A stretch of DNA of 33,837 nt from an uncultured Moraxellaceae bacterium (GCA_964347985.1 CAYGBB010000001.1:1-33837), one strand, 5' to 3'. Positions 12,001 to 33,837 are shown, counted from the first letter of the stretch. Notes: generated from the letters alone by a model not told the origin. Translations and numbers: made by a program.

Positions 12001-12210
12001 ACAACATCAGCGATGGTGATGGGCATGGTGCCACTGGCGCTGGGCTTGGGGGAAGGTGCAGAGCAACGCGCTCCAATGGCTCATGCCATTATCGGAGGGG
12101 TGATTACCTCCACCTTGCTGACCCTGATCGTGGTGCCCGTGGTCTATACGTATCTGGATGATCTCAAGCAGTTCGCGTTTCGCTTGATCGGTGGTCGCAA
12201 GGAGCAATGA
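9097..12210 (+). CDS. RND multidrug/efflux permease (AcrB/HAE family), 1037 aa
   Basis: It starts [18 protein letters not shown] and has the 12-TM AcrB architecture with two large periplasmic loops. The conserved motif is [24 protein letters not shown] lies 9 nt upstream of the ATG. Confidence 0.95.
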
Positions 12211-20146: not shown

Positions 20147-22861
20147 TTAAAAAATTTCCAGCAGGGGGTATGTTGCCAAGGCTGTGGCGGCGCTTGAAAA
20201 GGTCGCCCAGATGTGGGCACGTATGTCTGAGTTGCCTTGTGATGCCTGCAGGATGGCTGCCATGCGATTGCTGACTCCGAGCTTGGCAAAGATGTTTTTC
20301 AGATGCCATTTCGTGGTGGAAAGCGCAACGCCGATCCGGGTACTGATTTCGTTGTTGCTGAGCCCGTTGCGCAACAGTTGCAGTACTTCCTGTTCCTTGG
20401 CGGTCAAAAGGGTGGAGTCATCCCGTAATTCTGCGTCTGCACTGAGGTTGCCCTGCAGCAAATCCTTGAACATTTCCACATAAATGGCAGGCAGGGGCAG
20501 GTTGCCGACTTCGTGACAGCGTTTGAGAAATCCTCCCAGCCCAGGTGCTTCGTCAAATACCGTGCGGTTTATGCAGGCGATGCTGTAGTGGTCGACCAGT
20601 TTTTTCAGTCGATGCAGAGCAACATTGTCGTCACCCATGAGATGGCGGGTCAGGACAAGATTGGCCTCCACGACTACGGCTCGTGAGTTGGCTCCACTTT
20701 TTTTCAGGGCGCCCAGGATTATCTCAAGGATATGTTCGGCCTCTTCAAAACGCTGGTGAGTACATAACCAGAGTGCGGTAGCCAGCCCGTAACGTTCCCA
20801 TGCCTCGTCGTAGGGGCGGGTGCGTCGCCATGTGCCATTGGCCAGCCGTTCCTGCAGTTGAGAGGCCTCAGCAATGCGGTCCATTGAGTCACGATCATTT
20901 TCTGCATGAGCCTGACGCAGTTCTTCAAAGACCACCTGACTCATGAAGCGATCATAATTCCCGAGTTGCAGAATGCGCTTGAGTTGGGAGAGCAAGCGGG
21001 CTGCCCTGGCAGTCTCGTGGCGAAGGCTTAACAGGCGCGAGAGGGTGAGATAGGTGTAGGCAATGATTTCTGTTGCGCAGGAGGAGCTGACTACCGGGAC
21101 CAGCTCTTCGAGAAGATTAAGTGCGTCTTGTGTCCGGTTCTGTTCATATCGAACGACGGCAGCAGCCGTTGCCGCATTAATCCAGGTTGGTGTATGCGGA
21201 ACGTGGCGCAGTTGCTGGTAATTGTTTTCTGCATTCTGCATGGCTTCAAACATGCGCCCGGTGTTGCGGTGGCAGAGAATCAGGATGAGGTCGGCATAAC
21301 TGCCCAGATAGTCATAACCAAGCTGCTCCAGAACGACTTTTCCCTGTTCGGCGTACTGGAGCGCATTGTTGAAGTCGCCATGCAGAAGATAGTGATACGC
21401 CAGAATAGCCAGAGAGAATGCACGAATGTCATGATTCTGGCTGGACCGTATCAGCAGGGCCTGGTCGGCATTGAGCCGGAAATCAGTGTCATGCTGGAAA
21501 AGTTGCAGCATCAGTTCCAGGAAGAGCAGTGTGGATTCGTCAAGTGTTTGCCTGTTTTCCTGTTGCGGCAGGGCATCCAGATAGTAGCGGGCCTGATTGA
21601 ACCGGCGCGACAGTATCAGTGCGCTGATGAGGGATATGCTGAGATCCCGATCCGAAAGAACAACGTCGTCGGGCAGCGGGTCCAGCCACCGGATGATGTT
21701 GCTGCAGTCGCCCTTGCGGGACCAGCGCTCACAGCTTTTGCGCAGAACTTCCAGAAAGAATCCGGGACGTTTTGTCTGCTCGGCATGGCTCAGTGCCATT
21801 TCATCTTCGCCACGGAGAAGCCACTCGCGAGCCGCTGCTTCGTGCAAAGAGGACTGACGATCCGGTTGTTCTATGGTCAGGCGGTTGCGCAGGAAGTCCT
21901 GGAACAAGGGGTGATAGCGAAACCAGCCCGGGCGTTGCTCGATCATGTGCAGGAACAGTCCCTGCGACATCAGGCGGTCAATCAGACCTGCCGAGTTTTC
22001 GCGCACTAGTACGGTATCGCACAAGGCAGCATCAAAACGCTCGAGCAATGACGAGAACAATAAAAAGTCACGCTGATCTTCTGATAATCCACGCAATACC
22101 ACGTGAGCAAAATAGTCCACCAGTTCTGGCTGCGAACCACTGAATGCCGACAGGGCACTGTCTCCGGCACGCGCACAGGCGAGCAAGGCAATTTTCACGC
22201 CTGCCATCCAGCCCTCGGTTTGTTGCAGCAGCTGGCTGATATGGCTGGCATCAGGAATCTCAATGTCCATTTTTACTGCCAACGCACTGACCTGGGCTGG
22301 CGTAAGGCGCAGGTCATGCCCATCAATCAGCAGCAGGCGGTTGGCCAGTTTGAGGCGGCTCAGGGAAAAATCCGGGTATTCACGGGTGGCAATGATGAAA
22401 TGCACTTGCGCTGGCAGGTACTCGAGCAAGGCAGAAAAGGCATCCTGGACCAGTTGGTGACGGGCTAGCTGGAAATCATCGAGCACGATGAACAGTTCAT
22501 CTTCCACTGCCTGAAAGGCCTGCAGCAGCGACTCGGCTACGCTGTGTGCAGGCAAATGGATGTCGGCGCCCAGCGGGGTATAGGACACCGTATCAAAGTT
22601 GGTGACCACTTCACGCAGGGCATCGGTCAGGCGGGTAAAGAAATGCACCGGGTCGGCATCGCGAGGGTCGAGAACCATCACGACAGTACGTCGTTCCGGT
22701 AGTTGCCATCGCCATTGCTGGAGGAGGGTGGTCTTGCCGAAGCCGGGAGGGGCAAGCAACAGCGTCAGGGCATAGTCGGCACTGCGGTCCAGCAGGCTCA
22801 GCAGTTCTGGACGAGCAATTCGGTTGCCCGGCTCGCGACCGTGGTTTTTTTTACCAGGCAT
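20147..22861 (-). CDS. Large ATP-binding LuxR-family (LAL / MalT-like) transcriptional regulator
   Basis: It has N-terminal Walker A LLLAPPGFGKTTLL, Walker B FIVLDDFQ, a long helical/TPR-like middle and a C-terminal LuxR HTH LTAKEQEVLQLLRNGLSNNEISTRIGVALSTTKWHLKNIFAKLGV. AGGGAG lies 7 nt before ATG 22861. The alternative ATG 22867 is too close to the SD. Confidence 0.9.
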   Translation of the reverse strand: MPGKKNHGREPGNRIARPELLSLLDRSADYALTLLLAPPGFGKTTLLQQWRWQLPERRTVVMVLDPRDADPVHFFTRLTDALREVVTNFDTVSYTPLGADIHLPAHSVAESLLQAFQAVEDELFIVLDDFQLARHQLVQDAFSALLEYLPAQVHFIIATREYPDFSLSRLKLANRLLLIDGHDLRLTPAQVSALAVKMDIEIPDASHISQLLQQTEGWMAGVKIALLACARAGDSALSAFSGSQPELVDYFAHVVLRGLSEDQRDFLLFSSLLERFDAALCDTVLVRENSAGLIDRLMSQGLFLHMIEQRPGWFRYHPLFQDFLRNRLTIEQPDRQSSLHEAAAREWLLRGEDEMALSHAEQTKRPGFFLEVLRKSCERWSRKGDCSNIIRWLDPLPDDVVLSDRDLSISLISALILSRRFNQARYYLDALPQQENRQTLDESTLLFLELMLQLFQHDTDFRLNADQALLIRSSQNHDIRAFSLAILAYHYLLHGDFNNALQYAEQGKVVLEQLGYDYLGSYADLILILCHRNTGRMFEAMQNAENNYQQLRHVPHTPTWINAATAAAVVRYEQNRTQDALNLLEELVPVVSSSCATEIIAYTYLTLSRLLSLRHETARAARLLSQLKRILQLGNYDRFMSQVVFEELRQAHAENDRDSMDRIAEASQLQERLANGTWRRTRPYDEAWERYGLATALWLCTHQRFEEAEHILEIILGALKKSGANSRAVVVEANLVLTRHLMGDDNVALHRLKKLVDHYSIACINRTVFDEAPGLGGFLKRCHEVGNLPLPAIYVEMFKDLLQGNLSADAELRDDSTLLTAKEQEVLQLLRNGLSNNEISTRIGVALSTTKWHLKNIFAKLGVSNRMAAILQASQGNSDIRAHIWATFSSAATALATYPLLEIF

Positions 22862-22965
22862 GGCCATCTCCCTGATTTTTATTGTTTTTTTATGGATGAA
22901 CGACTGCTTTCAGGTGATGAAAGGCTATCACGGATACCCAAACCGGTAAACATCGTGTTCCTTTC

Positions 22966-22996
22966 GCCTCCCCAAGGTCCTTTTACCCTCCCAAGG
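22966..22996 (+). promoter_or_regulatory. Two C-rich CCAAGG boxes upstream of the di-haem gene
   Basis: GCCTCCCCAAGG (22966-22977) and CCCTCCCAAGG (22986-22996) are 19 nt apart on the coding strand. A third copy, CCCCCTCCAAGG, sits on the coding strand upstream of the dioxygenase gene (33547-33536). Function is unknown. Confidence 0.35.
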
Positions 22997-23074
22997 AAGG
23001 GGGGCTGATGGATGCTGGATGTGCAAGATGCACTAGCCGGAATCCATAATGCCGGTGCCAGGAGGGTGACCATC

Positions 23075-25393
23075 ATGAAAACAACAAGAACAGGACAGGC
23101 ACTGGGGTTATTGACCCTGCTGATACTGCCCGGCTGGAGCCTTGCGGCTCCCAGCTTCCCCGAGCAGGAAAAGGTCTGTAATTACGATGCCACGCGCGAG
23201 TTCAGGCGTACGCTGTCGGCCATGTCATTTCCGACGCCAGTAGCCAGCAGCATGCTGGTGAATGGTGTCCAGGCATGGACAGCTGGTTCCACGGCTGTTC
23301 CAACGATCAAGCCGGGCGACACGATTACCTTGCGTGGTACCGGCTTTGGTCAGGGAACGGATATCGACTTCAGCAAGATCATGATTGGCAACAGCCGGGT
23401 GCTGGAAACCGATCTCAGCATGTACAAGCAGATGCTCGATATTATTGCCGAAGTAAATTACGAGCTGGATCAGAAACACAGCACCTGGCCGAAGGATGTT
23501 CTGGGCTGGACGGATACCGAAGTGAGATTCAAGGTGCCGGTACATGCCAGTGCGGGTCCGATCCGGCTTCAGGTGCAGAAGCGTGTCGGACGCATGGGCT
23601 CTCTGACCAAACCGGGGCAGGCTCACAATGTGATTGACGCACAAACCAAGCGTATCACCAGTGATTTTTATCAGCACAAATGCGATGTGGTTTCCGAGCT
23701 GGGTGCCGAGACAAAGGCCATCACACCCATCAAGGTCAATGTCAGCAATACCGGACTGACAAGCCTGGTCGCACAAGGGCGGAAGATTTTCTGGTCATAT
23801 GATTACAACATCGGGCTGGCGCACAAAATGCGCGATCTTGATTGGGCCAAGATATTTTCATACAAGACAACAGACCCGATCACGCGTCAGCCGGCTGACC
23901 CGCGCAAGCTGTTTGGTGCTTACAAGACAGTAGCAGGAGAGGTGCCGGCCGAGGCGATCAACGATGTGTATTTTGATCCCTACCCCATGCCGAATCCGAT
24001 TCCGGGCCTGCTGCTGGTAACGCCGCAAAAAACCAAGGGCAATACGAAGAACACTGGTTGGGTAGGGTACCGCACGGCGGAATCGAGCCATCCCTACACG
24101 GGCAATGGCGCGTGGTCGGGGTTCAACTGTGCATCATGTCATGGCTATCGCATCAGCTACGAGAAAACACCCGGCCAGCAGGTAACGAAGGTAGTCCCCG
24201 GGTTGCCCAATCCGGAATGGAGCATGAAGTGGACGGTGCTGGGTGACAAGGCCGGTGCAACCACGGCGACATTCAAGGGAATTGAAGGCAATGAGGCCGG
24301 GCCATCCTGGGCACCGGGTAATGCCGACATCGACAAGACTACGCTTCTGTACTACATGCCAGCCGGCGTAGGTGAACACAACATCGTGCGCGCGACGGGT
24401 GAAGGCAGTGAGACTGACAATGATTACCAGTTCTCGCCGATCACGATTCCCAATGTGACTAACTACATGCCGATCCGGCGTTCGTTGTCGCACACGGAAT
24501 CGTACGTGGGGTTTGAAGGCTCCTATATCCATTCCGAGGAACCGGATGGTGCCATGGGCTCGATGCGTGCGGATGACCTGAAGGCGCTGACTGCCTACAT
24601 GACGACGCTGGATGGTGATGACAATGATCTGCGCAATGTGGGTCTCTATCGCTGGCTGAAGTCGAAAGGCCAGCTTGCAGCACAGACCGGTAATGCATCT
24701 CTGACGGAGGGCCAGTTTGTGCAAGGGGGATGGAAATCATTCCCGGGTGTGGTCAGCTCGGTTAATCAGGGCAAAACAGCGTTTGATCGCGATTGTGCCA
24801 GCTGTCATGGTGACAAGCTGGGTGCCAATACCAATGAGCGCATGTTCCGTCTGGACCAGGTTGGTCGCTTCTTTACGCCAACGATTTACCAGAAGGATCA
24901 GCAGTCCATTCGTGCCACTTTCCTGCGCGACATGTACTGGGTGCAGTCACGTGGCCTGTTGACTGATGGCCATGTGCGCAACATGGAAGATCTAGTGAAT
25001 CCGGATCGTTGTACGGAGGGTACTGCGCTCTACAACCAGTACTACACCCTGCATGCTGCGGTGCGTCCTGCACTGGGTTCCCCTGACCAGCCTGCCGCAT
25101 GGCCGGACCTGAATCGCAAGGGTGATGTGTTCCGGGTATACAAGAATGTGGAGTACAGCACCACCGACCCGTCTACCAAGCGCAATCGTTTCATTGAGCG
25201 TCACAAGTATTTTGTGACAGTGCCGTGGGATGATGGTCACTACTACTGGGATTACCAGAAAATGCGCCGTGAGTATGGTCCTGGTGAAATGGGAACTGCA
25301 CAGCCCATTGGCATGCCAGCTGCGCCGCATCCCTGGTGTGCAGCAAATGGTGGTGACGTTGATAGCCTGACGCAGTATGTACTGACGCTGTGA
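23075..25393 (+). CDS. Secreted IPT/TIG-domain + di-haem cytochrome c protein (CCP/MauG-like), 772 aa
   Basis: GGAGGG lies 8 nt before ATG 23075. The signal peptide is MKTTRTGQALGLLTLLILPGWSLA. The IPT-like segment is IKPGDTITLRGTGFG...VRFKVPVHASAGPIRLQV. Two CxxCH motifs occur (CASCH at nt 24128-24142 and 24794-24808). The second lies in the context GKTAFDRDCASCHG and is followed by FLRDMYW..RGLLTDGHV..MEDLV, which resembles the CCP PSLRN...PY.H.G segment. Confidence 0.8.
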   Translation: MKTTRTGQALGLLTLLILPGWSLAAPSFPEQEKVCNYDATREFRRTLSAMSFPTPVASSMLVNGVQAWTAGSTAVPTIKPGDTITLRGTGFGQGTDIDFSKIMIGNSRVLETDLSMYKQMLDIIAEVNYELDQKHSTWPKDVLGWTDTEVRFKVPVHASAGPIRLQVQKRVGRMGSLTKPGQAHNVIDAQTKRITSDFYQHKCDVVSELGAETKAITPIKVNVSNTGLTSLVAQGRKIFWSYDYNIGLAHKMRDLDWAKIFSYKTTDPITRQPADPRKLFGAYKTVAGEVPAEAINDVYFDPYPMPNPIPGLLLVTPQKTKGNTKNTGWVGYRTAESSHPYTGNGAWSGFNCASCHGYRISYEKTPGQQVTKVVPGLPNPEWSMKWTVLGDKAGATTATFKGIEGNEAGPSWAPGNADIDKTTLLYYMPAGVGEHNIVRATGEGSETDNDYQFSPITIPNVTNYMPIRRSLSHTESYVGFEGSYIHSEEPDGAMGSMRADDLKALTAYMTTLDGDDNDLRNVGLYRWLKSKGQLAAQTGNASLTEGQFVQGGWKSFPGVVSSVNQGKTAFDRDCASCHGDKLGANTNERMFRLDQVGRFFTPTIYQKDQQSIRATFLRDMYWVQSRGLLTDGHVRNMEDLVNPDRCTEGTALYNQYYTLHAAVRPALGSPDQPAAWPDLNRKGDVFRVYKNVEYSTTDPSTKRNRFIERHKYFVTVPWDDGHYYWDYQKMRREYGPGEMGTAQPIGMPAAPHPWCAANGGDVDSLTQYVLTL

Positions 25394-25451: not shown

Positions 25452-27623
25452 TTACCAGGTCTTCGTTACGCCGACATGAGCACTGAGGCGTTCATCCGGC
25501 AGGCCGCCATCGGCGTTGTACATTGCCGGTGCAATGTTCTTCCGGTCAAACAGATTGCGGATATCGAAATTGAGCTGGTAATTACGTGGCTTCCAGTTCA
25601 CATGAACGTCGGTTCTGAAATGGTCTGGCGCAGCTTTTGCCCGAGTCATGCCGAGTGAGTCGGTACGGGTGCGATCGAGCAGGGCGCGCTCATTCAGCCA
25701 GGCCTCCCAGTCTGTCAGGAAGCGGTAACCCAATCCCAGGTTGAGTGTCCATGTAGGGAAGGCGTTGTATTCACTCTCGGATGTCTTGTTCCTGCTTGTC
25801 ACATAGGCGGCATTTCCCTCCAGTCGCCACGCCCCCCACTGGTGATGATGGCTGAGTTCAACGCCCTGGGCATTGTTGCGCCCTGTATTCTGGTACTGGT
25901 TTTCTCCCAGCCCAACCGGGCCGAGCACAATGCCATCCTTCCAGTGGCTGGAGAACAGAACCAGTTCGGTCGCTTGTTGCTGGCTCTTGTATTGCCAGAT
26001 CATTTCAAGGGTATCGATGGTTTCTGCCTTGATGTCCGGGTTTGGCAGCTGGTTCGAGCCGGTGCCCCCGCCATATTGCTCGGCAGCGCTGGGTGCGCGG
26101 AAGGCGTGACTGTAAAGCAGTTTACCCGTCCAGTTCTTGCTATGCGTCCAGATGAGTCCAAGACGGGGCGATGTTGCGCTGCCCACATCGCTGTAGCCAT
26201 CCCAGCGCAGCCCGTAGACGGCAGCAAATTTGCCATCATGAAAGTCACTGCGTACATGCAGCAGGGCATGATCAATGTGGCGGGAAGCGCCTTTGTACGG
26301 GGACTGAGTTTCCACATAGAGGGGGGCATTATCGGGTTGGCGCCGGACAAAGGCGTCGGTGATGGTCAGCCAGTTGCGTCCGAATCCAACGGCCCAACGG
26401 GTATTGCCGAACAGGGCATTTTGTGGACGCAGCAGCGCCTCCAGTCCACGTCTCCGGTCAGCAGTGCCCTGCGACAGTGTGTGAGGACAGTAGAGGGGGG
26501 AAACACCGGTTTGGCCCGGGCTGGTGCGGCATGGCAGGACAACATTACCGAGGGTGGTGAGTGAGTCAGGGTAGTCCTGCAGGTTGGCTATCCAGGTCTG
26601 GTCACTTTCCCACTGGAAAGCCTTTATTTCGAGTTCAAGCGAGTGTGTCAATTCTCGCTGGTGCAGTAATTGTGCTTGCCAGAAATCAGACTCCTGCCCC
26701 ATGACGTCATGCGCACCAGAAAGGCTCAGGCTGGCAAGTTGAAAACTGTTTTGCAGTGGTTGATAGAACTGGGTGCCAATGGCGGGAAACCCGCGTGAGT
26801 CATAACGGTTGCCATACAGGCTGAGTCGCCATAGACCGAAGTCTGATGGGCTTTCGCCACTTTCAACATGCAGGAAACCGGAGGCATCATGTTCATGATT
26901 GTCGCGTACACCAGTGCCTGCCTGCCCGGTGAACGCATCAGTGTATGTATAGGTAAGATCACGGTCGCCCTGATGGGTCAGGGCCAGTCCGCCATCAATG
27001 CGAATGGTTTTTGTGGCGGTATTGCCGATCAGGCTTAGCGATCCGTCTTCATGGCTGCCAGCACGTGCAGCAAGGTGCCTGCTGGCATCACCCAGGCTGC
27101 GCGTGTGGATATCCAGTACACCATGAAAGGCATCCGAACCGTAGAGGGTGCTGCCGGGCCCCCTGATCATTTCGATCCGGCCCAGCAGATCCAGCGGGAT
27201 GAAGGGCAGGTCGTAGGCAGAAGTGGCGTAGCTGTAATTGTTGAGCGGGACGCCATCCAGCAAGGTGGCGATACCGCGAGCGGATAATTCGGTGGCGTAT
27301 CCCCGCACAGCAAACATGCGTGCGCCACCCAGAGATGTGTAGGTGGATACAGCAGGCACCTGTTCCAGGGCTTCGCCCAGTGTCTGGGCGGCGCGCCGTT
27401 CCCAGTCTTCCGGTTGCAGCACAGCGACAGAGGCGGCAGCGTTGAAAACCGTTTCTTCATAGGGAGAAGCCACCGAGACGCGCACTTCCATCAGTGACTC
27501 AAGCGGCATCTCGAACAGATCCGGTTCGGCGGACATTGCTAATGGCGCAGCGCACATCCACGCCCATGCAGCAACTGAAAGAATGATTGTTTCAAGTCTG
27601 GCATGAGCCTGGTGGCGAGACAT
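25452..27623 (-). CDS. TonB-dependent outer-membrane receptor
   Basis: It has a signal peptide, then DLFEMPLESLMEVRVSVAS (the N-terminal motif of the TBDR subclass linked to YfiR/CHASE8 modules). The plug contains IEMIRGPGSTLYGSDAFHGVLDI. A long beta-barrel follows and the protein ends in an aromatic residue (..TKTW). The start overlaps the kinase stop (TGATG). Confidence 0.9.
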   Translation of the reverse strand: MSRHQAHARLETIILSVAAWAWMCAAPLAMSAEPDLFEMPLESLMEVRVSVASPYEETVFNAAASVAVLQPEDWERRAAQTLGEALEQVPAVSTYTSLGGARMFAVRGYATELSARGIATLLDGVPLNNYSYATSAYDLPFIPLDLLGRIEMIRGPGSTLYGSDAFHGVLDIHTRSLGDASRHLAARAGSHEDGSLSLIGNTATKTIRIDGGLALTHQGDRDLTYTYTDAFTGQAGTGVRDNHEHDASGFLHVESGESPSDFGLWRLSLYGNRYDSRGFPAIGTQFYQPLQNSFQLASLSLSGAHDVMGQESDFWQAQLLHQRELTHSLELEIKAFQWESDQTWIANLQDYPDSLTTLGNVVLPCRTSPGQTGVSPLYCPHTLSQGTADRRRGLEALLRPQNALFGNTRWAVGFGRNWLTITDAFVRRQPDNAPLYVETQSPYKGASRHIDHALLHVRSDFHDGKFAAVYGLRWDGYSDVGSATSPRLGLIWTHSKNWTGKLLYSHAFRAPSAAEQYGGGTGSNQLPNPDIKAETIDTLEMIWQYKSQQQATELVLFSSHWKDGIVLGPVGLGENQYQNTGRNNAQGVELSHHHQWGAWRLEGNAAYVTSRNKTSESEYNAFPTWTLNLGLGYRFLTDWEAWLNERALLDRTRTDSLGMTRAKAAPDHFRTDVHVNWKPRNYQLNFDIRNLFDRKNIAPAMYNADGGLPDERLSAHVGVTKTW

Positions 27624-29992
27624 CAGAGTCGGCTCCCGGGAACAGTGGTACCGGGCCTTGTGCCCGTGATTGGTAACCAGCGACGCAATATGTCCAGCAG
27701 TTCGGCACGCCGGAATGGTTTGCCCAACACATCATCCATGCCGGATTCCATGCAGGCGGCGCGTTCGTCGGCCAGAACACTCGCGGTCACTGCCACGATA
27801 GGAATATAGCGCTTCCGGCCAGCATTGTTATCGGCATCCCGTATGAGCCGGGTTGCGGCAAAGCCATCCATTTCCGGCATTTGGCAATCCATCAGGATCA
27901 GGTCGTATTCCTGCGTGGCCCAGGCCTCAACGGCTTCTCGACCATTGGTGACGATGTCCACGGTACATCCCAGTCCGCGCAACATGGCCTTGGCGACTTC
28001 CTGATTTGTAGGAGTGTCTTCTGCGAGCAGAATACGGAGTCCTTCCCAGGCGGGATCTGGTCGCCGGGAGGGAGACTGGCTTTCATCGACCGGGTTTGTT
28101 TCAAGGCAGCTACGCATGGCCTCATAAATCTCGTGGGTGCGTGCCGGCTTGTTCAGGTGATGTGAAAAGCCTGTGGTGCGTGCGGTGAGCAGGTCTCCGG
28201 GATTCAGCAGGGAAGTCAGCAGGATCAGACGTACACTGGAAAGTGTGGGATCTGTTTTAATCGCAAGGCCAAGGGCAATGCCATCCATTTCCGGCATTTG
28301 CATGTCGATAAGGGCAAAGTCGTATGGGAGGCCATTGTTTTGCGCGGCGCGCAGGGTTGCCAGGGCACTGGCGGCATTGCCCACCGTATCGCAGTGCATG
28401 CCCAGCATGCTGGTCTGGTGCTTGAGGATTTCCTGATTGGTTGGATGGTCGTCCACGACCAGCACTCGCAAGCCATTCAGGTCCGCAGTCATGCCTGAGG
28501 TAATCATTGTTTCCGAGGGCTGCAGCGTCAGGCTGAAGCGAAAGTGAGTGCCTTGGTCAGGGATGCTGTCGACCTGAATGCTTCCTCCCATCAGCTCTAC
28601 GAGTTGTTTCACAATCGCCAGACCGAGTCCGGTACCACCAAAGCGGCGGGCATGTGAGCTGTCCGCCTGAACAAAGGGCTTGAAAAGCTGTTGCAGGGTT
28701 GAGGCATCCATGCCGATACCGGTGTCATGCACGCCGAAAAGCAGGCGAGTGGTCTGGGCTGTGTCGACAGCAATCGACACAACCACCGCCCCCCGTTCGG
28801 TAAACTTGATGGCATTGCTCACCAGGTTGAGCAGGATCTGGCGCAGCCGGTGCGGGTCGCCCTTGACGGCCATCGGTACGTTGGAGTCAATCCGGCTGGC
28901 CAGCTCAAGGCCCTTGCGATGTGCGCGTTCTGCCAGCAACCCCACAACGTCTTCAGTGATCTGCGACGGGCTGAAGTCGATTGATTCCAGCTCCATTTTT
29001 CCCGCCTCGATTTTCGAGAAGTCGAGAATGTCATTGATGATGGTGAGCAGTGCCTCGCCGGAGTTGTGAGCGGTCTCGGCATAGCGCCGCTGCGTAGAAG
29101 AAAGGTCACTGTCCAGCAACAGTTCGGTCATGCCCAGTACCCCATTCATGGGGGTACGTATTTCATGACTCATGGTGGCCAGAAACTGTGACTTTGCACG
29201 GTTGGCTGTTTCTGCCGCATGACTGGCGTCGCGCAGTTCATGTGTGCGTTCCTCCACCAGCTGCTCCAGGCTTTCCCTGTGTCGCTTGAGTTCGGCATCA
29301 CGCAGTTCAATCTGCTCCAGCATTTCGTTGAAGCTGTCGACTAGATGACCGATTTCATCCTGACCACCAGGTTGTGCGCGCAGTGAGTAGTTCTTCTTTA
29401 ATGATACTTTTTCTGCCAGATTGGCGAGATCAACAATCGGTGTGGTCACAAACCGGCGCAATCGCATGCCGAGGATAGTGGTGATGGTCAGTGCAGCCAT
29501 TGCGAGAAGGGCCATCACTAGCAAATAGAACAGCAGGGTGCGCCAGACCGATGAAATATCGGCAGTAATATAGAGCGTGCCCAGTTGCTCGCCTTCAAGA
29601 AGGATGGGTTCGCTGACATGTACATGACCACTGAAATATTGTGTGACGCCGGTCATGTTGTGATGACAGTGGAAATCCTTGCTTTTGTGCAGCTGCAGGA
29701 TGGTGAATATCTTGCCATTTGTAACAACGCAGGCATGCATGACGGAGGGGTCTGCCTGCAGTGAGCCAAGCAAGGCATTTGTTTCTTTTACATCCATGAA
29801 TGCCAGGGCCGCTTGCACATTGTAGGCGGTGGCACGTGCAAGCGTGGAGAGTCGCGTACTGGTGTCGTCATACAGCTTGATGGACGCCACGACAGCAAAG
29901 ATCAGCCAGGCCACCAACAGGGCGGATCCCGCAGACAGAAGCAGAATGCGCATGAATTTCTGGTGCAGGGGTAGGTCACGTAAGTGTGTCAT
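27623..29992 (-). CDS. Hybrid sensor histidine kinase (CHASE8-like periplasmic domain, HAMP, HisKA, HATPase, two receiver domains)
   Basis: The periplasmic segment between two TM helices is [40 protein letters not shown]. It also has a HAMP domain, H-box [16 protein letters not shown] and N/G boxes [25 protein letters not shown]. The receiver domains are VLVVDDHP...[10 protein letters not shown] and ILLAEDTP...[10 protein letters not shown]. Confidence 0.9.
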
Positions 29993-30540
29993 TTTTCCCC
30001 CGACCGCGGTGTACGGGCTAGTTGCAGCATTCGGGCGCTGATTTTCAGGCCGGCCTGCTGTGCGGTATCGAGATTGATCATGAACTGCACCCGGTTTGAT
30101 TCCACAAACAGCTCGATCATGCCGCCATTGTGGGTGAAGTCCGGAGCATCACTTACCGTGAGGGTGGCATTATTGGCAGAAGGCTTGAGCAACTGTGCTA
30201 GCTGGCGTGCCTTGTCCCGCGTAATGAACATGACATGACAACCGGCCTGATCGTCTGCCGGTTCGAGGAGGCGTACCTGCAGCAGATGTCCCTGAGCCTC
30301 ACGGCCATGCAGTTGACGCAGCCTGTTACCAATGTCGTTCTTGCCCATGATGCAGATTTGCATGGGGGCTTCGGGCGCCAGGGCTGTAGTCGGCCATTCC
30401 ACGAACTTGGTGAAGTTGTAGATGAAGGCGGCCTTGACATCTGTTTCCGAGCTGCCTGCATTGGCCAAATCAGCCTGAAGCAACCAGAAAGCAGACGCCA
30501 AAGTCCCGAGCAGCTGCCTGCCTTTTGTCATGGTTTTCAC
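29989..30540 (-). CDS. YfiR-family (DUF4154) periplasmic protein
   Basis: It has a signal peptide ending LANA, and [16 protein letters not shown] is the family hallmark. The stop overlaps the kinase start (ATGA). The start is GTG 30540 or ATG 30531. Confidence 0.8.
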
Positions 30541-30687: not shown

Positions 30688-33435
30688 TTACTTGTCTTCG
30701 CTACGCTGGTGCTTGAAGAACACACCGTTGTCACCGAAGGCAGACACGATCAGCGGGGAGGTCAGCTCCAGTTCACCAATCTTCTTGGCACTGGCACGAC
30801 GGTCCTTTGCATACTGCGTGTTGGTGGACGGGAAGATGGAAGTCTTGATTTCCATCGAGGTGGCGTAGACGTCATACAGCTTCGAGCCGGCACCCAGGGT
30901 GGCCAGGTCGTGACGGAAGTCATGCGGGGTGGAGACAAACTTCGTCTTCACTTCAGGACGCGGCACAAAGTAGATCTGTGTCGGTGCCTTCGGTGTAGCT
31001 ACAGTGGCGCCGGCCTGTGTCACTTCTGACATGTCGTTCATGATCACGAGGGTCGGCTTGGTGCTGACGGCCGAGAACAGGATGGTGGAGCCCAGTTCGT
31101 TGGCATCGGTCGATACATAGTTCGACAGTTCGTTGGCAAAGAAGTTGTAGTTGGTACCCTGACCGGCCAGCGTGTAAAGCGCAGACACGTTTTCCGATGG
31201 CTTGCCGTTCACAAGAGCCTTCCAGGCCAGACCAGGCTGGAACTTGTTGCTTGCAGCCGGATTCTCAGTGACGGACAGACGCAGCAGGCCGTAGTCCGAG
31301 CCCTGGAACAGGCCCGTGTAGCCGTTGGCGGCAACTGGTACAAACTTCACCTTGGCCATGGCAGCATGACGGTGGATCGGCTTGACGTAGTCGGCAGGGG
31401 CGACATCAGTACGGGTCTGCACCTTCTTCCAGAGGATGGAGCTGATCAGGCCGCCAGTATCCGTTTCTGCCAGGGCAGGCATGGTGGTCTTGTACTGTGT
31501 GCGCTTGGCACCGTTCACCCAGAGGTGATCGGCCTTGGCGCTGGCATTCCAGCTTTCGTAGTCAGCGGTCATGTTCAGGCCCCAGGGCTTGAAGGCATTT
31601 TCCACTCCAGTCAGGCTGAGTGCCAGTTCCGGGTTGTGACGCTTGATCACATCCACCATGGTGGTGTTTTCGACCCAGTCGTAACCTACCTGGGTGTACA
31701 CCTCAGGACGGTAGTCCTTGGTGTAGAAGCGGTCAGTCATCAGACGACGCGAAGCGTTCAGGATAAAGATCTGGAAGGCGGTTTCACCGAAGGCGAAGCC
31801 ATCCGGACGGGTGGTTTCCGCCATGATGCCGACGATGGTATCGATCTTCTCGATATCGTTGCTGTAGATACGCTTCAGGTTGGCCAGTGTCGCCGGATCG
31901 GTCGTCAGGTCTTCGAACTTCGTGATCGGGTTCAGCTGGATCTGGCGGCGGAACTCGTTGTAACGCGGAACACCTCGCTCGCGGTCACGCAGGATGTCGG
32001 TCGTTGCCAGATCGATGTTGCCGACCAGCGGGATATCCAGGTTGCGCAGGAAGTTCGGGTAGTTGTTCAGGGTCAGCGAACCCGGGTTGGTAATACCGAA
32101 GGAGTACCACATGCGCGACGGGGTTTCCGTGTTCAGCATGTTCTCGGCCTTGCCTTCGCGGGTGTCCGGCAGGGAAACGGTCTTGACCGGAGTATTGTCA
32201 CCAATGTCGTAAACCTGGACATTGTCACGCATCAACGGGTGCATGCGGTACACGGAAACAAACTCTTCGGTCAGGGTATACGGGACGCCATAGTTGTTCG
32301 GGTTGGCCGAACCGACCAGGCCAGCAATGGCGTGATCCAGCGTGCCGCTACCGACATTACCAGCGAGGTTGGAGTCAGTACCGAGGATGGTCTTGATGAA
32401 CGAGTCGGTCTTGGACAGGTCTTCGTACCACTGGCGGGTTTCTGCCTGGTACTTGTCACGGCCTGAAGCGTTACCGATGAGGCCCCACCAGTTGGCGTAC
32501 ATGGCGCGCTCGGTGACCGGGTTGGCGATCACGGCAGGTGTCCATTCCACCGTGTGGATTTTCGCCATCAGTGCAGAGGTGACCAGACGGGCCTTGTCAT
32601 ACAGCCACTGGTCGGATGCGGTCGGGTACGTCTGCTTCAGCCGGGTGGCAATGGCATTGTGTTCCTTGGTGAAGATCTGATGCAGCATGCTCAGACCAAC
32701 CCACCAGTTGTCGTTGAAGCCGGTAACCGGCTTGCCGTTCAGGAGTTCGGTCGGCAGGGTGCCATTGGCATTGATTTTCAGCTTGCCGTCGACAAAGGAA
32801 CGGATCTTGTCGTTCTGGGCCTTGCTGCTGCCATACAGCTGCGAGCCATCCCACCAGTGGGTGTTGTGGTTGCGGTAAGTGTTGATCTTGCCGGCGTCGG
32901 CGGCTGTACGATCCCAGTCGGCCTTGGTACGACGAACATCGAGATAGCCGGTGCCGAGGGCATCACCGGAGGGCAGGGGTACCTTGATCGGGTTGGTGGA
33001 CGGGTTGGGGCCGTGATCCACCCAGTCGTGCACCATGAACTGGATCCATGACGCTGCGATGAAGTTCAGGCTGGGGGCCGGCTTGAAGGGGCCACGGGCC
33101 ATCAGGGTGTTACTGACCTCACGGGGGTTGGGGCTCAGCAGGCCGGTTGCTTCGGTTTCACCCGCAGCAACGGTCGGGTTAACGTTGCGGCCAAAACGCA
33201 CATAGACCGAGCCTTCGGCCGGGTTTGACAGGATGTTGCAGGTACCGTCTTCGGTACGTGCCGTCAGGCTGCGTGTGTCGCAGGTGATGGTGCTGTTGCG
33301 TTTAGGATAGTCCTCGAGGTCAAACATGTTTTCGTCAAGGAGATTGCCGCGCTCTACGGCCAGTGTGATAAGGCCGGCCGCGATACCCAGCGTGCCGAAC
33401 TTGGTCAGTGCTGGCCAAGTTACCCAAATTGCCAT
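30688..33435 (-). CDS. Fatty-acid alpha-dioxygenase / cyclooxygenase-type haem protein (animal haem peroxidase superfamily) fused to a C-terminal domain of about 270-290 aa of unknown function
   Basis: GAGGGA lies 7 nt before the ATG and the N-terminus carries a hydrophobic anchor. Residues about 50-620 are colinear with plant alpha-DOX. Shared motifs are RTEDGTCN, RFGRN, AASWIQFMVHDWVDH, WWDGSQLYG, FTKEHNAI, ARLVTSALMAKIHTVEWT, PYTLTEEFVSVYRMH (catalytic Tyr context), RDRERGVPRYNEFRR and GETAFQIFILNASRRL. The ORF continues without a stop for 294 more residues. Confidence 0.9.
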   Translation of the reverse strand: MAIWVTWPALTKFGTLGIAAGLITLAVERGNLLDENMFDLEDYPKRNSTITCDTRSLTARTEDGTCNILSNPAEGSVYVRFGRNVNPTVAAGETEATGLLSPNPREVSNTLMARGPFKPAPSLNFIAASWIQFMVHDWVDHGPNPSTNPIKVPLPSGDALGTGYLDVRRTKADWDRTAADAGKINTYRNHNTHWWDGSQLYGSSKAQNDKIRSFVDGKLKINANGTLPTELLNGKPVTGFNDNWWVGLSMLHQIFTKEHNAIATRLKQTYPTASDQWLYDKARLVTSALMAKIHTVEWTPAVIANPVTERAMYANWWGLIGNASGRDKYQAETRQWYEDLSKTDSFIKTILGTDSNLAGNVGSGTLDHAIAGLVGSANPNNYGVPYTLTEEFVSVYRMHPLMRDNVQVYDIGDNTPVKTVSLPDTREGKAENMLNTETPSRMWYSFGITNPGSLTLNNYPNFLRNLDIPLVGNIDLATTDILRDRERGVPRYNEFRRQIQLNPITKFEDLTTDPATLANLKRIYSNDIEKIDTIVGIMAETTRPDGFAFGETAFQIFILNASRRLMTDRFYTKDYRPEVYTQVGYDWVENTTMVDVIKRHNPELALSLTGVENAFKPWGLNMTADYESWNASAKADHLWVNGAKRTQYKTTMPALAETDTGGLISSILWKKVQTRTDVAPADYVKPIHRHAAMAKVKFVPVAANGYTGLFQGSDYGLLRLSVTENPAASNKFQPGLAWKALVNGKPSENVSALYTLAGQGTNYNFFANELSNYVSTDANELGSTILFSAVSTKPTLVIMNDMSEVTQAGATVATPKAPTQIYFVPRPEVKTKFVSTPHDFRHDLATLGAGSKLYDVYATSMEIKTSIFPSTNTQYAKDRRASAKKIGELELTSPLIVSAFGDNGVFFKHQRSEDK

Positions 33436-33516: not shown

Positions 33517-33548
33517 GGGTGGGGGGTGCCCCACCCCTTGGAGGGGGG
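33517..33548 (-). promoter_or_regulatory. GC hairpin plus C-rich CCAAGG box in the dioxygenase upstream/leader region
   Basis: GGGTGGGG-GGTG-CCCCACCC forms an 8-bp all-GC/AT-perfect stem (33517-33536). It abuts the motif CCCCCTCCAAGG on the coding strand (33547-33536). Confidence 0.3.
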
Positions 33549-33608
33549 AATTCGTCTGTAAAAGTGATTATTGGTGACTTGAAAGTCTTCAAATGTGACT
33601 TGATGGAT

Positions 33609-33638
33609 AAAAAAACGGCCGCATAGGCGGCCGTTTTT
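33609..33638 (-). terminator. Rho-independent terminator after the htpX-like gene
   Basis: The sequence is AAAAAAACGGCCGC-ATAG-GCGGCCGTTTTT. On the minus strand a U run of 7 follows the stem. Confidence 0.8.
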
Positions 33639-33680
33639 CTTGTTGCAGGGTTATTTGCGCAATAACCAGAGGAAACACAC

Positions 33681-33837
33681 TTACATGATTTGCTGGTTCT
33701 GCAGTGCCTGGATACGGACTTCCAGCGGTGGATGCGACATGAACAGCTTGGCCAGGCTGAAACCTTCCAGCTTGCCGGTGGTGATGGCCAGCGCCGTCAT
33801 CTCGGCAGGCATCTGGTCGGGCAGCTCATGCTCGGCC
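33681..33837 (-). CDS. htpX: M48-family zinc protease (HtpX-like), C-terminal 52 codons; 5' end outside window
   Basis: The hand translation of the minus strand is ..[51 protein letters not shown]. The LF.SHPPL..RI.AL tail is typical of HtpX/M48 peptidases. Confidence 0.6.

What the first reader, a model, noticed from the sequence alone, without database searches (positions are those of the whole stretch)
23075..25393. Unusual secreted protein: IPT/TIG-like domain fused to a widely spaced di-haem cytochrome c (CCP/MauG-like) module
Seen in the sequence:
- It has a Sec signal peptide and an Ig-like IPT segment (residues about 70-180).
- An unassigned region of about 170 aa follows.
- Two CxxCH motifs are about 220 residues apart (C352-H356 and C574-H578), wider than in canonical CCPs as I recall them.
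- Each haem site is followed by a segment resembling the CCP 'P.LRN....PY.H.G' axial-ligand region: IPNVTNYMPIRRSLSHTESY and FLRDMYWVQSRGLLTDGHV.
- The C-terminal tail is Trp/Tyr-rich (VPWDDGHYYWDYQKM).

Established: CCP/MauG-family di-haem enzymes do peroxide reduction, long-range protein oxidation (MauG, BthA) and, in Pseudomonas, fatty-acid dioxygenation and diol synthesis.

Inference: next to an alpha-DOX-type enzyme, it could process the hydroperoxide product or supply or remove oxidising equivalents in the periplasm.
Basis: partly seen in the sequence, partly recalled or inferred. Interest (0 to 1): 0.7.

Follow-up and report, generated by a model that had tools for sequence, protein, structure and literature searches.

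The report
Uncharacterised secreted di-haem lipid-regulon enzyme
This gene encodes a secreted, very highly conserved two-haem protein of an unstudied family whose main body matches no solved structure, and it shares a control element with a fatty-acid alpha-dioxygenase, which points to a role in oxidising lipids outside the cytoplasm.

Summary
ORF 23075-25393 (+) encodes a 772-aa protein with a Sec signal peptide, an Ig-like TIG domain and two CxxCH motifs (C352-H356 and C574-H578, 222 residues apart).

The family is rare: 162 of 185,579 species genomes, and 104 representatives among 1.84 billion. It is extremely conserved (about 64% identity between Moraxellaceae and Leptospira) and is annotated everywhere as hypothetical.

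The CCP/MauG label is only weakly supported.
- The haem-2 domain resembles a CCP-type haem domain above shuffled controls.
- The haem-1 region shows nothing beyond CxxCH.
- Pfam and NCBIfam thresholds and the MauG motif are not met.
- A confident AlphaFold model (pLDDT 93.5) finds no CCP, MauG or RoxA among its Foldseek matches.

A palindrome, CCCCTCC-N3-5-GGAGGGG, lies upstream of this gene in 32 of 34 loci that also encode the divergent MalT-type regulator. It also lies upstream of the alpha-dioxygenase gene in 15 of 20 loci, including both positions in this window. In Fluviicoccus it precedes a ceramidase gene as well.

Best reading: an extracytoplasmic di-haem enzyme of an inducible lipid-oxidation regulon, probably converting lipid hydroperoxides. 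The chemistry is inferred, not shown.

The parts
23075..25393 (+). Gene for the 772-aa secreted di-haem c-type cytochrome (uncharacterised family)
   Evidence: ORF. RBS AGGAGG at 23060-23065. 301 full-length homologues. AlphaFold pLDDT 93.5.
23075..23149 (+). Sec signal peptide (residues 1-25, cleavage SLA|AP); a lipoprotein signal in many orthologues
   Evidence: Read from the sequence and alignment A1. pLDDT below 50 for residues 1-22.
23237..23599 (+). Ig-like IPT/TIG beta-sandwich (residues about 55-175)
   Evidence: Pfam TIG 21.8 bits against cut-off 20.9. Strands in the model. Foldseek hits are Ig-like only, best 8co1_A2 with prob 1.00.
24038..24199 (+). Beta-meander (residues 322-375) carrying haem-1 motif C352-A-S-C-H356 (nt 24128-24142); proposed catalytic haem
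   Evidence: Strands E322-329, 332-339, 343-350, 357-365 and 368-375 flank the motif. The motif is invariant. The only above-noise family hit is NF040606, sub-threshold.
24707..25390 (+). Class-I / CCP-type cytochrome c domain (residues about 545-772) with haem-2 motif C574-A-S-C-H578 (nt 24794-24808), the GLLTDGHVRNMEDLV segment, invariant H752 (PHPW) and a likely C646-C755 disulfide
   Evidence: Pfam Cytochrom_C 30.7 bits and Cytochrome_CBB3 29.3 bits, both above cut-off. hhalign to CCP profile 92.6%, above shuffled controls. The Cys pair is lost together in P0146.
22986..23004 (+). Palindromic promoter element CCCTCCCAAGGAAGGGGGG, 71-89 bp upstream of the ATG; presumed operator of the MalT-type regulator
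   Evidence: One of only two matches in the window, 0.27 expected by chance. Present within 300 bp upstream of the orthologue in 32 of 34 MalT-containing loci.
20147..22867 (-). Divergently transcribed MalT/LuxR-type STAND regulator (906 aa)
   Evidence: Pfam GerE, AAA_16, AAA_22 and TPR. Same position and orientation in 33 of the 89 fetched loci (34 of 90 with the window) at 35-97% identity. WHD_MalT is listed in the orthologues.
33529..33545 (-). Second copy of the palindrome (CCCTCCAAGGGGTGGGG), 94-110 bp upstream of the alpha-dioxygenase ATG
   Evidence: An equivalent site lies upstream of alpha-DOX in 15 of 20 loci.
30688..33435 (-). Fatty-acid alpha-dioxygenase homologue (915 aa) with an N-terminal hydrophobic helix and an unassigned C-terminal region of about 300 aa; co-regulated partner
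   Evidence: Pfam An_peroxidase 5.6e-106. PDB 4kvj rice fatty-acid alpha-oxidase 2.7e-113 and 4hhr alpha-DOX 1.4e-104. Within 10 kb of the cytochrome gene in 19 of 89 loci.

Best explanation
The gene encodes an exported di-haem c-type cytochrome enzyme. It is periplasmic or secreted here and lipid-anchored in many relatives. It belongs to a rare, very strongly conserved and uncharacterised family.

Architecture, from the N-terminus:
- signal peptide;
- Ig-like TIG domain, probably for surface or substrate binding;
- helical linker;
- a beta-rich module with haem 1 (H356 proximal ligand);
- a class-I/CCP-type cytochrome domain with haem 2 (H578 proximal ligand).

In Gammaproteobacteria the gene belongs to a small regulon controlled by the divergently encoded MalT/LuxR-type regulator through a palindrome, CCCCTCC-N3-5-GGAGGGG. 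The same element precedes the fatty-acid alpha-dioxygenase gene and, in Fluviicoccus, a neutral ceramidase gene.

Proposed mechanism (inferred). Haem 2 is a six-coordinate electron-relay haem, probably bis-His with H752. Haem 1 is the reactive site, with invariant E481 and H486 nearby. The enzyme acts on a lipid oxidation intermediate in the cell envelope. The most likely reaction is reduction or rearrangement of fatty-acid hydroperoxides such as the 2-hydroperoxy acids made by alpha-DOX.

What is shown: export signal, two conserved haem-c sites, domain layout, conservation, synteny and the shared cis-element. What is inferred: regulator binding, haem ligation and roles, the substrate, and the peroxidase-type chemistry.
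For: Haem sites and export:
- Haem motifs and export signal.
- The six haem Cys/His are invariant, together with H486, H752, E481, D450, D631, R645, Y657 and D726, in 103 sequences. They hold in a 26%-identical relative.

Structure:
- High-confidence model, pLDDT 93.5, pTM 0.92. Haem 1 sits in a beta-meander and haem 2 follows a helix.
- The haem-2 domain passes the Pfam Cytochrom_C and Cytochrome_CBB3 cut-offs.
- The haem-2 domain is closer to a CCP profile than shuffled controls or a c4-like family.

Regulon:
- A MalT-type regulator is divergent upstream in 33 of 89 loci, and alpha-DOX lies within 10 kb in 19 of 89.
- The palindrome lies upstream of the cytochrome gene in 32 of 34 MalT loci and upstream of alpha-DOX in 15 of 20 loci. 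Background is 25 sites in 976 kb of loci in which no MalT gene was detected.
- The window has exactly two matches, each upstream of and oriented towards one of the two genes.
- A ceramidase gene is adjacent in four Fluviicoccus/Moraxellaceae loci and, independently, in Turneriella.
- Other lineages also carry a dedicated divergent regulator: AraC-type or Crp-type.

Host range:
- Hosts lean towards lipid and hydrocarbon users: Alcanivoracaceae, Thalassolituus, Leptospira, Agitococcus, Solimonas.
- That these organisms live on lipids or hydrocarbons is from general knowledge.

Partner enzyme:
- The alpha-DOX orthologues (all 19 ORFs of that cluster) have a conserved N-terminal hydrophobic helix.
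- The about-915-aa type also has a conserved Cys pair.
- Both features are compatible with an envelope location.
Against: - No biochemical data exist for any member.
- Most lineages carrying the gene (Aquabacterium, Thalassolituus, Leptospira) have no alpha-DOX nearby, so the enzyme cannot depend on alpha-DOX.
- The haem-1 region has no detectable similarity to any peroxidase beyond CxxCH, and there is no structural match to CCP, MauG or RoxA.
- The palindrome could be an RNA or DNA structural element rather than an operator; no binding was tested.
- The topology of alpha-DOX is not established.
- Model coordinates could not be inspected, so the ligand assignments (H752, H486) rest on conservation alone.
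Confidence: 0.45

Rival explanations
1. An O2-dependent lipid or isoprenoid dioxygenase in the manner of RoxA or the Pseudomonas aeruginosa oleate 10S-dioxygenase/diol synthase (PA2077/PA2078). Haem 1 binds O2 and oxygenates or cleaves a double bond of an unsaturated fatty acid, sphingoid base or isoprenoid. Haem 2 is structural or only primes the enzyme.
For: - Same general format as RoxA and FadCcps: about 70-80 kDa, exported, stand-alone, two widely spaced CxxCH, very high conservation among orthologues. RoxA has spacing 199, 63-89% identity among orthologues and a bis-His C-terminal haem H394/H641 (PMC6311187; PMC4496055).
- Here H752 lies 119 residues after the DGH segment, similar to the 124 residues from H517 to H641 in RoxA.
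- The gene is monocistronic with its own regulator.
- Hosts lean towards lipid and hydrocarbon degraders.
- Two family members give weak hits to NCBIfam RoxC (0.036).
Against: - The MauG motif PY[FLM]H[ND]GSV that RoxA, RoxB and PA2077/78 all carry is absent; the sequence here is GLLTDGHV.
- RoxA (PDB 4b2n) is not found by sequence profile, and no RoxA entry is among the 50 listed Foldseek matches.
- No direct comparison with the RoxA or PA2077 sequences was possible.
Confidence: 0.2
2. An electron-transfer cytochrome or extracellular redox protein, for example in metal oxidation or reduction or as a partner of another oxidoreductase, with no catalytic chemistry of its own.
For: - Haem 2 lies in an ordinary class-I cytochrome context.
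- The family occurs in Aquabacterium, Leptothrix and Rubrivivax next to cytochrome c biogenesis genes (ResB/CcsB) and a c4-like cytochrome.
- In this window a TonB-dependent receptor lies next to the gene.
Against: - 770 residues with about 64% identity across phyla, and many invariant polar residues around both haems, is far more constraint than electron carriers usually show.
- No conserved redox partner gene is present.
- The ResB/CcsB synteny is confined to one lineage.
- The TonB-dependent receptor is absent in 90%-identical relatives.
Confidence: 0.12
3. A hydrogen-peroxide-detoxifying cytochrome c peroxidase of the classical kind.
For: - Weak colinear hits to NCBIfam NF040606 'di-heme cytochrome C peroxidase' in all 12 members tested (best 1.4e-9).
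- Sub-threshold Pfam CCP_MauG hits in 7 of 12.
- CCP-type similarity of the haem-2 domain.
- Crp/Fnr-type regulators are adjacent in Aquabacterium.
Against: - All hits are far below family cut-offs (23.6 vs 150 bits).
- Real CCP homologues do not hit NF040606 at E <= 0.001, and this family does not hit the MauG/MbnH-type models that those homologues hit.
- There is no fold match.
- The extra TIG and beta-rich modules, and control by MalT- or AraC-type regulators alongside lipid enzymes, do not fit a housekeeping peroxidase.
Confidence: 0.1
4. A MauG/MbnH/BthA-like enzyme that oxidatively modifies a partner protein or peptide by long-range hole hopping.
For: - Two haems and many invariant Trp/Tyr residues (W240, W257, W382, Y657, W725).
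- CCP-type haem-2 domain.
Against: - No conserved neighbouring gene that could encode a substrate protein was found in 36 representative loci (targets <85% identical to one another).
- No hits to MauG or MbnH models.
Confidence: 0.05

Closest known systems
Bacterial di-haem cytochrome c peroxidase / MauG superfamily (Pfam PF03150; e.g. E. coli Ccp/YhjA, MauG, MbnH)
   Same: - Exported, with two c-type haems in two cytochrome-like domains.
- The haem-2 domain aligns to CCP haem domains above controls (hhalign 92.6%, score 53.1 vs 35.6 +/- 2.9 for shuffles).
- A LRD...GLLxDGHVxxLEDLV segment sits at about the distance from CxxCH where CCPs have PSLRN...PYFHDGSVxTLEE.
- C-terminal helices of the AFLxTL type follow both haem regions.
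   Different: - Twice the size, with an N-terminal TIG domain.
- Haem 1 lies in a beta-meander with no similarity beyond CxxCH.
- Haem spacing is 222 against 140-208.
- The MauG-motif His is missing in the window protein.
- Pfam and NCBIfam thresholds are not met.
- No structural match.
RoxA / RoxB rubber oxygenases and P. aeruginosa FadCcp enzymes (PA2077 10S-dioxygenase, PA2078 7,10-diol synthase)
   Same: - Large (about 70 kDa), exported di-haem c proteins with widely spaced CxxCH that act on hydrophobic substrates.
- Strongly conserved among orthologues.
- Periplasmic or extracellular lipid oxygenation is the closest functional analogy, given the co-regulation with alpha-DOX (PMC6311187, PMC4496055, PMC5155153).
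   Different: - Those enzymes keep the PY[FLM]HNGSV MauG motif and are recognisable CCP relatives (as the cited papers report; not tested here); this family is not.
- Those enzymes are not reported to have a TIG domain.
- RoxA is mostly loops and helices, whereas this protein has substantial beta structure.
- The RoxA structure is not found by any search here.
NCBIfam NF040606 'di-heme-cytochrome C peroxidase' (524-position subfamily model)
   Same: - The only named family hit by every member tested.
- Hits are colinear: haem 1 maps to profile positions 54-108 and haem 2 to 295-337, so the haem spacing is similar (about 225).
- The match includes the strand before haem 1.
   Different: - Scores are 24-38 bits against a 150-bit cut-off, and the matches are short.
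- The model's members and their function are unknown to me.
- Genuine CCP homologues do not hit it at E <= 0.001.
Plant and cyanobacterial alpha-dioxygenase pathway (fatty acid to 2-hydroperoxy acid to Cn-1 aldehyde or 2-hydroxy acid)
   Same: The co-regulated neighbour is a clear alpha-DOX homologue (4kvj, 4hhr). A dedicated hydroperoxide-converting partner would complete such a pathway.
   Different: To my knowledge, no di-haem partner is known for any alpha-DOX. The bacterial enzyme carries an extra, unassigned region of about 300 aa.

Membership tests
Bacterial di-haem CCP/MauG (PF03150) | Two CxxCH haem-c sites in an exported protein | tested here: met
   C352-H356 and C574-H578, invariant; Sec signal peptide.
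Bacterial di-haem CCP/MauG (PF03150) | Match to the Pfam CCP_MauG model at its gathering score | tested here: not met
   No hit for the window protein at E <= 1. Sub-threshold hits in 7 of 12 relatives, best E 0.0019.
Bacterial di-haem CCP/MauG (PF03150) | Match to curated MauG / MbnH / His-Xaa-Ser MauG-like NCBIfam models | tested here: not met
   None listed for 12 family members at E <= 10. Four genuine CCP homologues hit these models at 1e-16 to 1e-71.
Bacterial di-haem CCP/MauG (PF03150) | MauG/CCP motif P-[YF]-x-H-[ND]-G-S-V after the C-terminal haem | tested here: not met
   The window has G-L-L-T-D-G-H-V (627-634). His is present only in the divergent clade, as GLLHDGHV. Motif as given in PMC6311187 and PMC4496055.
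Bacterial di-haem CCP/MauG (PF03150) | Profile-profile similarity of both haem domains beyond the CxxCH motif | tested here: inconclusive
   - Haem-2 domain: 53.1 vs 35.6 +/- 2.9 for shuffles, and 30.1 against a c4-like family.
- Haem-1 region: 42.7 vs 43.0 +/- 3.4.
- Without CxxCH, the post-haem-2 segment reaches only z about 2.
Bacterial di-haem CCP/MauG (PF03150) | CCP/MauG fold (two class-I-like domains around a Ca site) detectable by structure comparison | tested here: not met
   Foldseek of the pLDDT-93.5 model against the PDB gave no match with E <= 0.001, and all 50 listed matches fall on the Ig-like domain. Only the whole-chain search and the top 50 could be seen, so a weak domain match cannot be excluded.
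RoxA / FadCcp oxygenases | Sequence or structural similarity to RoxA (PDB 4b2n) | tested here: not met
   Not found by phmmer or hmmsearch against PDB sequences at E <= 10. No RoxA entry is among the 50 listed Foldseek matches.
RoxA / FadCcp oxygenases | Dioxygenase activity with O2 stably bound at the N-terminal haem | not testable with these tools
   Needs spectroscopy and an enzyme assay.
NCBIfam NF040606 di-haem cytochrome C peroxidase | Score of at least 150 bits against the model | tested here: not met
   23.6 bits for the window protein; best 37.7 bits among relatives.
IPT/TIG Ig-like domain (PF01833) | Pfam gathering score and a beta-sandwich fold | tested here: met
   21.8 bits against cut-off 20.9, partial match 78-112. 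Beta-sandwich over residues 55-175 in the model, and Ig-like Foldseek hits.
Class I cytochrome c domain (PF00034 / PF13442) | Pfam gathering score at the haem-2 site; helix preceding CxxCH | tested here: met
   30.7 vs 21.3 bits and 29.3 vs 27 bits. Helix 557-573 precedes C574. PDB profile hits are class-I cytochromes only.
MalT/LuxR-type regulon member | Adjacent STAND-LuxR regulator plus a shared cis-element upstream of the co-regulated genes | tested here: met
   Regulator domains. Synteny in 33 of 89 loci. Palindrome upstream of the cytochrome gene in 32 of 34 loci and of alpha-DOX in 15 of 20. Binding itself was not tested.

The most novel reading that the evidence does not exclude
This is the founding member of a structurally new class of extracytoplasmic di-haem enzymes, with haem c embedded in a beta-meander and an Ig-like substrate-binding domain. 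With a bacterial alpha-dioxygenase and, in some lineages, a ceramidase, it forms a previously unrecognised MalT-controlled pathway for alpha-oxidation or oxylipin formation from fatty acids and sphingolipids in the cell envelope.
Probability: 0.3. Interest if true: 0.8.

Novelty: new variant of a known kind. Interest (0 to 1): 0.6.

Why it matters
- Bacterial oxylipin and alpha-oxidation chemistry is poorly mapped. The only characterised periplasmic di-haem lipid oxygenases are the P. aeruginosa diol-synthase pair, and no partner enzyme is known for any alpha-dioxygenase.
- This family occurs in oil degraders (Alcanivoracaceae, Thalassolituus) and in Leptospira. It is conserved at a level that implies a precise catalytic role, and it now has a testable context: a three-part regulon with a defined operator-like palindrome.
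- A new haem-c fold with new lipid chemistry would interest haem enzymologists, and also people looking for biocatalysts that make fatty aldehydes, 2-hydroxy acids or oxylipins.
- If it turns out to be merely an odd peroxidase, the interest is modest.

Tried and rejected
- First AlphaFold run used 20 close homologues and gave pLDDT 61, unusable; its Foldseek search gave only Ig hits.
- PDB sequence searches with the protein, with profiles A1 and A3, and with a 50-aa motif segment gave nothing beyond class-I cytochrome motif matches.
- hhalign of A3 against the single E. coli Ccp sequence gave 4.5%, uninformative.
- The third homologue search, seeded with E. coli Ccp, returned only hits of at least 85% identity, too uniform for a profile. 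I replaced it with 13 diverse plasmid-borne CCP homologues.
- The raw hhalign probabilities (71-93%) looked convincing until column-shuffled controls showed that the CxxCH block alone gives 44-70% (up to 90%). Only the score excess of the haem-2 domain survives.
- A search for a universal neighbouring gene (all-against-all ORF clustering, Pfam on 106 neighbours, small downstream ORFs) found only lineage-specific synteny plus regulators.
- No CCP gene was found in the fetched loci to use as a local comparator.
- Literature searches for the locus tag, for TIG-cytochrome in Leptospira, and for alpha-dioxygenase with Alcanivorax or ceramidase found no study of this family.
- The C-terminal 289 residues of alpha-DOX gave no PDB match.
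- One paper search failed on syntax.
Full report
**1. The observation**

The window has an open frame at 23012-25393 (+). The functional start is ATG 23075. AGGAGG lies at 23060-23065, and the N-termini of the full-length orthologues in A1 align to this ATG.

The 772-aa product begins with a typical Sec signal, MKTTRTGQALGLLTLLILPGWSLA|AP. Many orthologues carry a lipobox instead (LLSGC, LLAGC), so relatives are lipoproteins. Some are annotated 'putative lipoprotein' in Leptospira.

Pfam finds three things. The first is a marginal but above-threshold TIG match (78-112, 21.8 vs 20.9 bits). The other two are Cytochrom_C and Cytochrome_CBB3 matches at the second CxxCH. The CxxCH motifs sit at residues 352-356 and 574-578.

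**2. How rare and how conserved**

A word-indexed search of 5.8 billion proteins gave 301 hits. The best 120 listed hits are nearly all full-length (a few are truncated) and 64-100% identical. They are named hypothetical, cytochrome c, or IPT/TIG protein.

An exhaustive HMMER scan of 1.84 billion cluster representatives found only 104 with E <= 0.001. All were fragments or members of this same family, with no CCP, MauG or RoxA among them. Only a handful of full-length divergent members appeared, at 28-47% identity.

In one-genome-per-species GTDB, 162 of 185,579 species carry the gene. They include:
- Moraxellaceae (the window's closest relatives, 90%), Fluviicoccus and Agitococcus;
- Alcanivoracaceae, Thalassolituus, Solimonas and Ketobacteraceae;
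- Aquabacterium and Leptothrix;
- Leptospira and Turneriella at about 64% identity.

Myxococcales and Planctomycetota versions also exist. Some genomes carry two copies (L015/L023, L036/L044).

In a 103-sequence alignment the invariant residues include both CxxCH motifs, H486 (GFEGSYIH), H752 (PHPW), E481, D450, D631, R645, Y657, D726, W240, W257 and W382. The same haem Cys/His, H486 and H752 hold in a 26%-identical member. C646 and C755 are absent together in P0146, the most divergent member; C35 and C203 are both invariant in the core family (A1) but neither is conserved in the wider alignments. Both patterns suggest disulfides.

**3. Structure**

With 20 close homologues AlphaFold gave pLDDT 61. 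With 103 diverse sequences it gave pLDDT 93.5 and pTM 0.92.

Layout of the model:
- beta-sandwich, residues 55-175;
- helices, 228-295;
- a five-strand beta-meander, 322-375, with haem-1 CxxCH in its middle;
- a long loop-rich stretch;
- helices, 499-553;
- helix 557-573 leading into haem-2 CxxCH, as in class-I cytochromes;
- short helices and hairpins, then a C-terminal helix.

Foldseek against 350,542 PDB chains returned no match with E <= 0.001. The 50 listed matches are all Ig-like hits to the N-terminal domain. The model could not be cut into domains, and only the top 50 are shown. A weak match of the cytochrome part therefore cannot be excluded, but nothing like a clear CCP, MauG or RoxA fold is detected.

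**4. Is it CCP/MauG-like?**

Sequence profiles against PDB chains find only class-I cytochrome motif matches at haem 2.

Family models give the following.
- The window protein does not hit Pfam CCP_MauG. Seven of 12 relatives hit it below threshold (best 0.0019).
- All 12 hit NCBIfam NF040606 'di-heme-cytochrome C peroxidase'. The hits are colinear: haem 1 maps to profile 54-108 and haem 2 to 295-337. Scores are 24-38 bits against a 150-bit cut-off.

I built a CCP profile from E. coli Ccp plus 13 plasmid-borne homologues of 26-54% identity. hhalign against it gave:
- 92.6% for residues 541-772;
- an alternative 85.4% alignment pairing LRD..GLLTDGHV with PSLRN..PYFHxG;
- 71% for residues 215-540.

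Controls matter here. Shuffling every column except the CxxCH block still gives mean probabilities of 44% and 70%.
- The real score for the haem-2 part is 53.1, against 35.6 +/- 2.9 for shuffles (maximum 46.7).
- The real score for the haem-1 part is 42.7, against 43.0 +/- 3.4.
- With CxxCH removed, the post-haem-2 segment is only about 2 sd above shuffles.
- The clearest remaining signals are the AYMxTL and YVLTL helices, which match the CCP C-terminal helix.
- Against an unrelated c4-like di-haem family the haem-2 domain scores 30.1.

Four genuine CCP homologues hit the MauG, MbnH and MauG-like NCBIfam models at 1e-16 to 1e-71 and do not hit NF040606. This family hits none of those models.

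RoxA, RoxB and PA2077/78 all keep the MauG motif PY[FLM]H[ND]GSV (PMC6311187, PMC4496055). Here it reads GLLTDGHV, without the His.

Conclusion on this point: the haem-2 domain is plausibly a distant CCP-type or class-I domain. The haem-1 module is not recognisably related to anything. Membership of the CCP/MauG family is not established.

**5. Genomic context**

Neighbours in the window:

| Coordinates | Strand | Product |
|---|---|---|
| 20147-22867 | - | MalT/LuxR-type STAND regulator |
| 25452-27623 | - | TonB-dependent receptor |
| 27623-29992 | - | CHASE8 hybrid histidine kinase |
| 29989-30540 | - | YfiR-like protein |
| 30688-33435 | - | 915-aa alpha-dioxygenase homologue |

The alpha-dioxygenase homologue matches Pfam An_peroxidase at 5.6e-106 and rice fatty-acid alpha-oxidase 4kvj at 2.7e-113.

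Across 89 fetched loci:
- The MalT-type gene is divergent and immediately upstream in 33.
- Alpha-DOX is within 10 kb in 19.
- In the 90%-identical relatives alpha-DOX directly follows the cytochrome gene. The receptor/kinase/YfiR block in this window is therefore a lineage-specific insertion.
- In Alcanivoracaceae the order is alpha-DOX, MalT, then the cytochrome gene.

No other neighbour is shared across lineages. Other lineages have AraC-type regulators (Solimonas, Leptospira, Turneriella) or two Crp/Fnr-type regulators (Aquabacterium).

A neutral ceramidase gene sits next to the cytochrome gene in four Fluviicoccus/Moraxellaceae loci. A 34%-identical ceramidase is present in Turneriella.

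**6. A shared cis-element**

Upstream of the cytochrome gene in MalT-containing loci there is a palindrome, CCCCTCC-N3-5-GGAGGGG.

A pattern search finds exactly two matches in the 33.8-kb window, against 0.27 expected by chance:
- 22986-23004 (+), 71-89 bp before the cytochrome ATG;
- 33529-33545 (-), 94-110 bp before the alpha-DOX ATG.

With a relaxed pattern across all loci:
- 32 of 34 MalT loci have a site within 300 bp upstream of the cytochrome gene, mostly at -75 to -125.
- 15 of 20 alpha-DOX loci have one upstream of alpha-DOX.
- Background is 25 sites in 976 kb of loci in which no MalT gene was detected.

Fluviicoccus loci have an additional site upstream of the ceramidase (and GH5) genes.

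This is strong comparative evidence that the cytochrome, alpha-DOX and, where present, the ceramidase form one regulon. The inference that the MalT-type protein binds the palindrome is untested.

**7. Mechanism**

Shown: an exported protein with two conserved haem-c sites, an Ig-like domain, and membership of a lipid-enzyme regulon.

Inferred:
- Haem 2, in the class-I/CCP-type domain, is an electron-relay haem. H752 is its probable sixth ligand. H752 lies in a loop tied by the C646-C755 disulfide to the place where CCPs carry their Met ligand, and its spacing resembles RoxA H517 to H641.
- Haem 1, in the beta-rich module with invariant E481 and H486 nearby, is the reactive centre.
- The substrate is a lipid oxidation intermediate. 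The most economical proposal is reduction or rearrangement of fatty-acid hydroperoxides, such as the 2-hydroperoxy acids alpha-DOX makes, or lipid hydroperoxides met by organisms living on long-chain fatty acids.

The alpha-DOX orthologues share a conserved N-terminal hydrophobic helix, and the about-915-aa type also shares a conserved Cys pair. This is compatible with an envelope location.

The main rival is direct O2-dependent oxygenation in the manner of RoxA or PA2077. The evidence here cannot separate the two. Because most lineages lack alpha-DOX nearby, the enzyme must have a substrate that does not depend on alpha-DOX.

**8. Novelty and verdict**

No publication or informative annotation exists for the family. 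It is best described as a new variant within the broad kind 'exported di-haem c-type oxidoreductases'. Its haem-1 module may be structurally new, and it has a newly defined regulon context.

The CCP/MauG label is only partly supported. The alpha-DOX link is supported on better grounds than adjacency. Interest is moderate to high (0.6).

Noticed in passing
window 30688-33435 (-), residues about 620-915 and 1-70 of the product: The alpha-dioxygenase homologue is about 300 aa longer than the plant enzymes. The extension has no Pfam or PDB match. All orthologues share an N-terminal WVTWPALTKFGTLG..AGL.TLA hydrophobic helix, and the about-915-aa type also shares a C-x13-C pair. Shorter paralogues (586-604-aa ORFs) occur near the cytochrome gene in L033, L037 and L065, without the palindrome.
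   Followed up: partly
window 25452-30540 (-): A TonB-dependent receptor, a CHASE8/HAMP hybrid histidine kinase with two receiver domains, and a YfiR/DUF4154 protein have touching or overlapping stop and start codons (27623; 29989-29992), so they are probably one operon. The block is inserted between the cytochrome and alpha-DOX genes. It is absent in the 90%-identical relatives (L010-L013) and partly present (kinase plus YfiR) in L014.
   Followed up: partly
L008 5392-9887; L021, L026, L028; L069 6481-8394: A neutral/alkaline ceramidase, with a GH5 'cellulase' that could be an endoglycoceramidase in L008 and L028, sits between the MalT-type regulator and the cytochrome gene in Fluviicoccus. 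It has its own copy of the palindrome. A 34%-identical ceramidase lies next to the AraC regulator and the cytochrome gene in Turneriella.
   Followed up: partly
L015/L023, L036/L044, L027/L029 (same MAGs); P0248/P0254: Several genomes carry two paralogous copies of the di-haem gene. In L015/L023 and L036/L044 one copy lies in the MalT/alpha-DOX context and the other elsewhere (L029 is cut at the contig end).
   Followed up: no
P0121 and Myxococcales/Polyangiales members P0248-P0273: Deltaproteobacterial-type members are 860-970 aa long. P0121 has a Cys-rich N-terminal extension ahead of the TIG domain.
   Followed up: no
window 33600-33640 (-): A clean hairpin followed by a T-run (aaaaacggccgcctatgcggccgttttttt) follows the ORF that ends near 33683. 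It lies just upstream of the alpha-DOX palindrome, so alpha-DOX has its own promoter region.
   Followed up: no
window 23005-23025: Directly after the palindrome come two GGATG repeats (ctgatGGATGctGGATGtg). From memory they resemble E. coli MalT-box half-sites. They are not conserved in the other loci inspected.
   Followed up: partly
window 1-20104: The rest of the window looks ordinary:
- RecD-like helicase fragment;
- cNMP-binding regulator;
- alpha/beta hydrolase;
- nitronate monooxygenase;
- nitroreductase;
- two TetR regulators with two long ORFs (7828-9072, 9097-12210) that I take to be an RND efflux pair, by analogy with the L009 locus (not scanned here);
- ABC transporter with an SBP_bac_11-family solute-binding protein;
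- L,D-transpeptidase;
- pirin;
- NAD kinase.
   Followed up: partly
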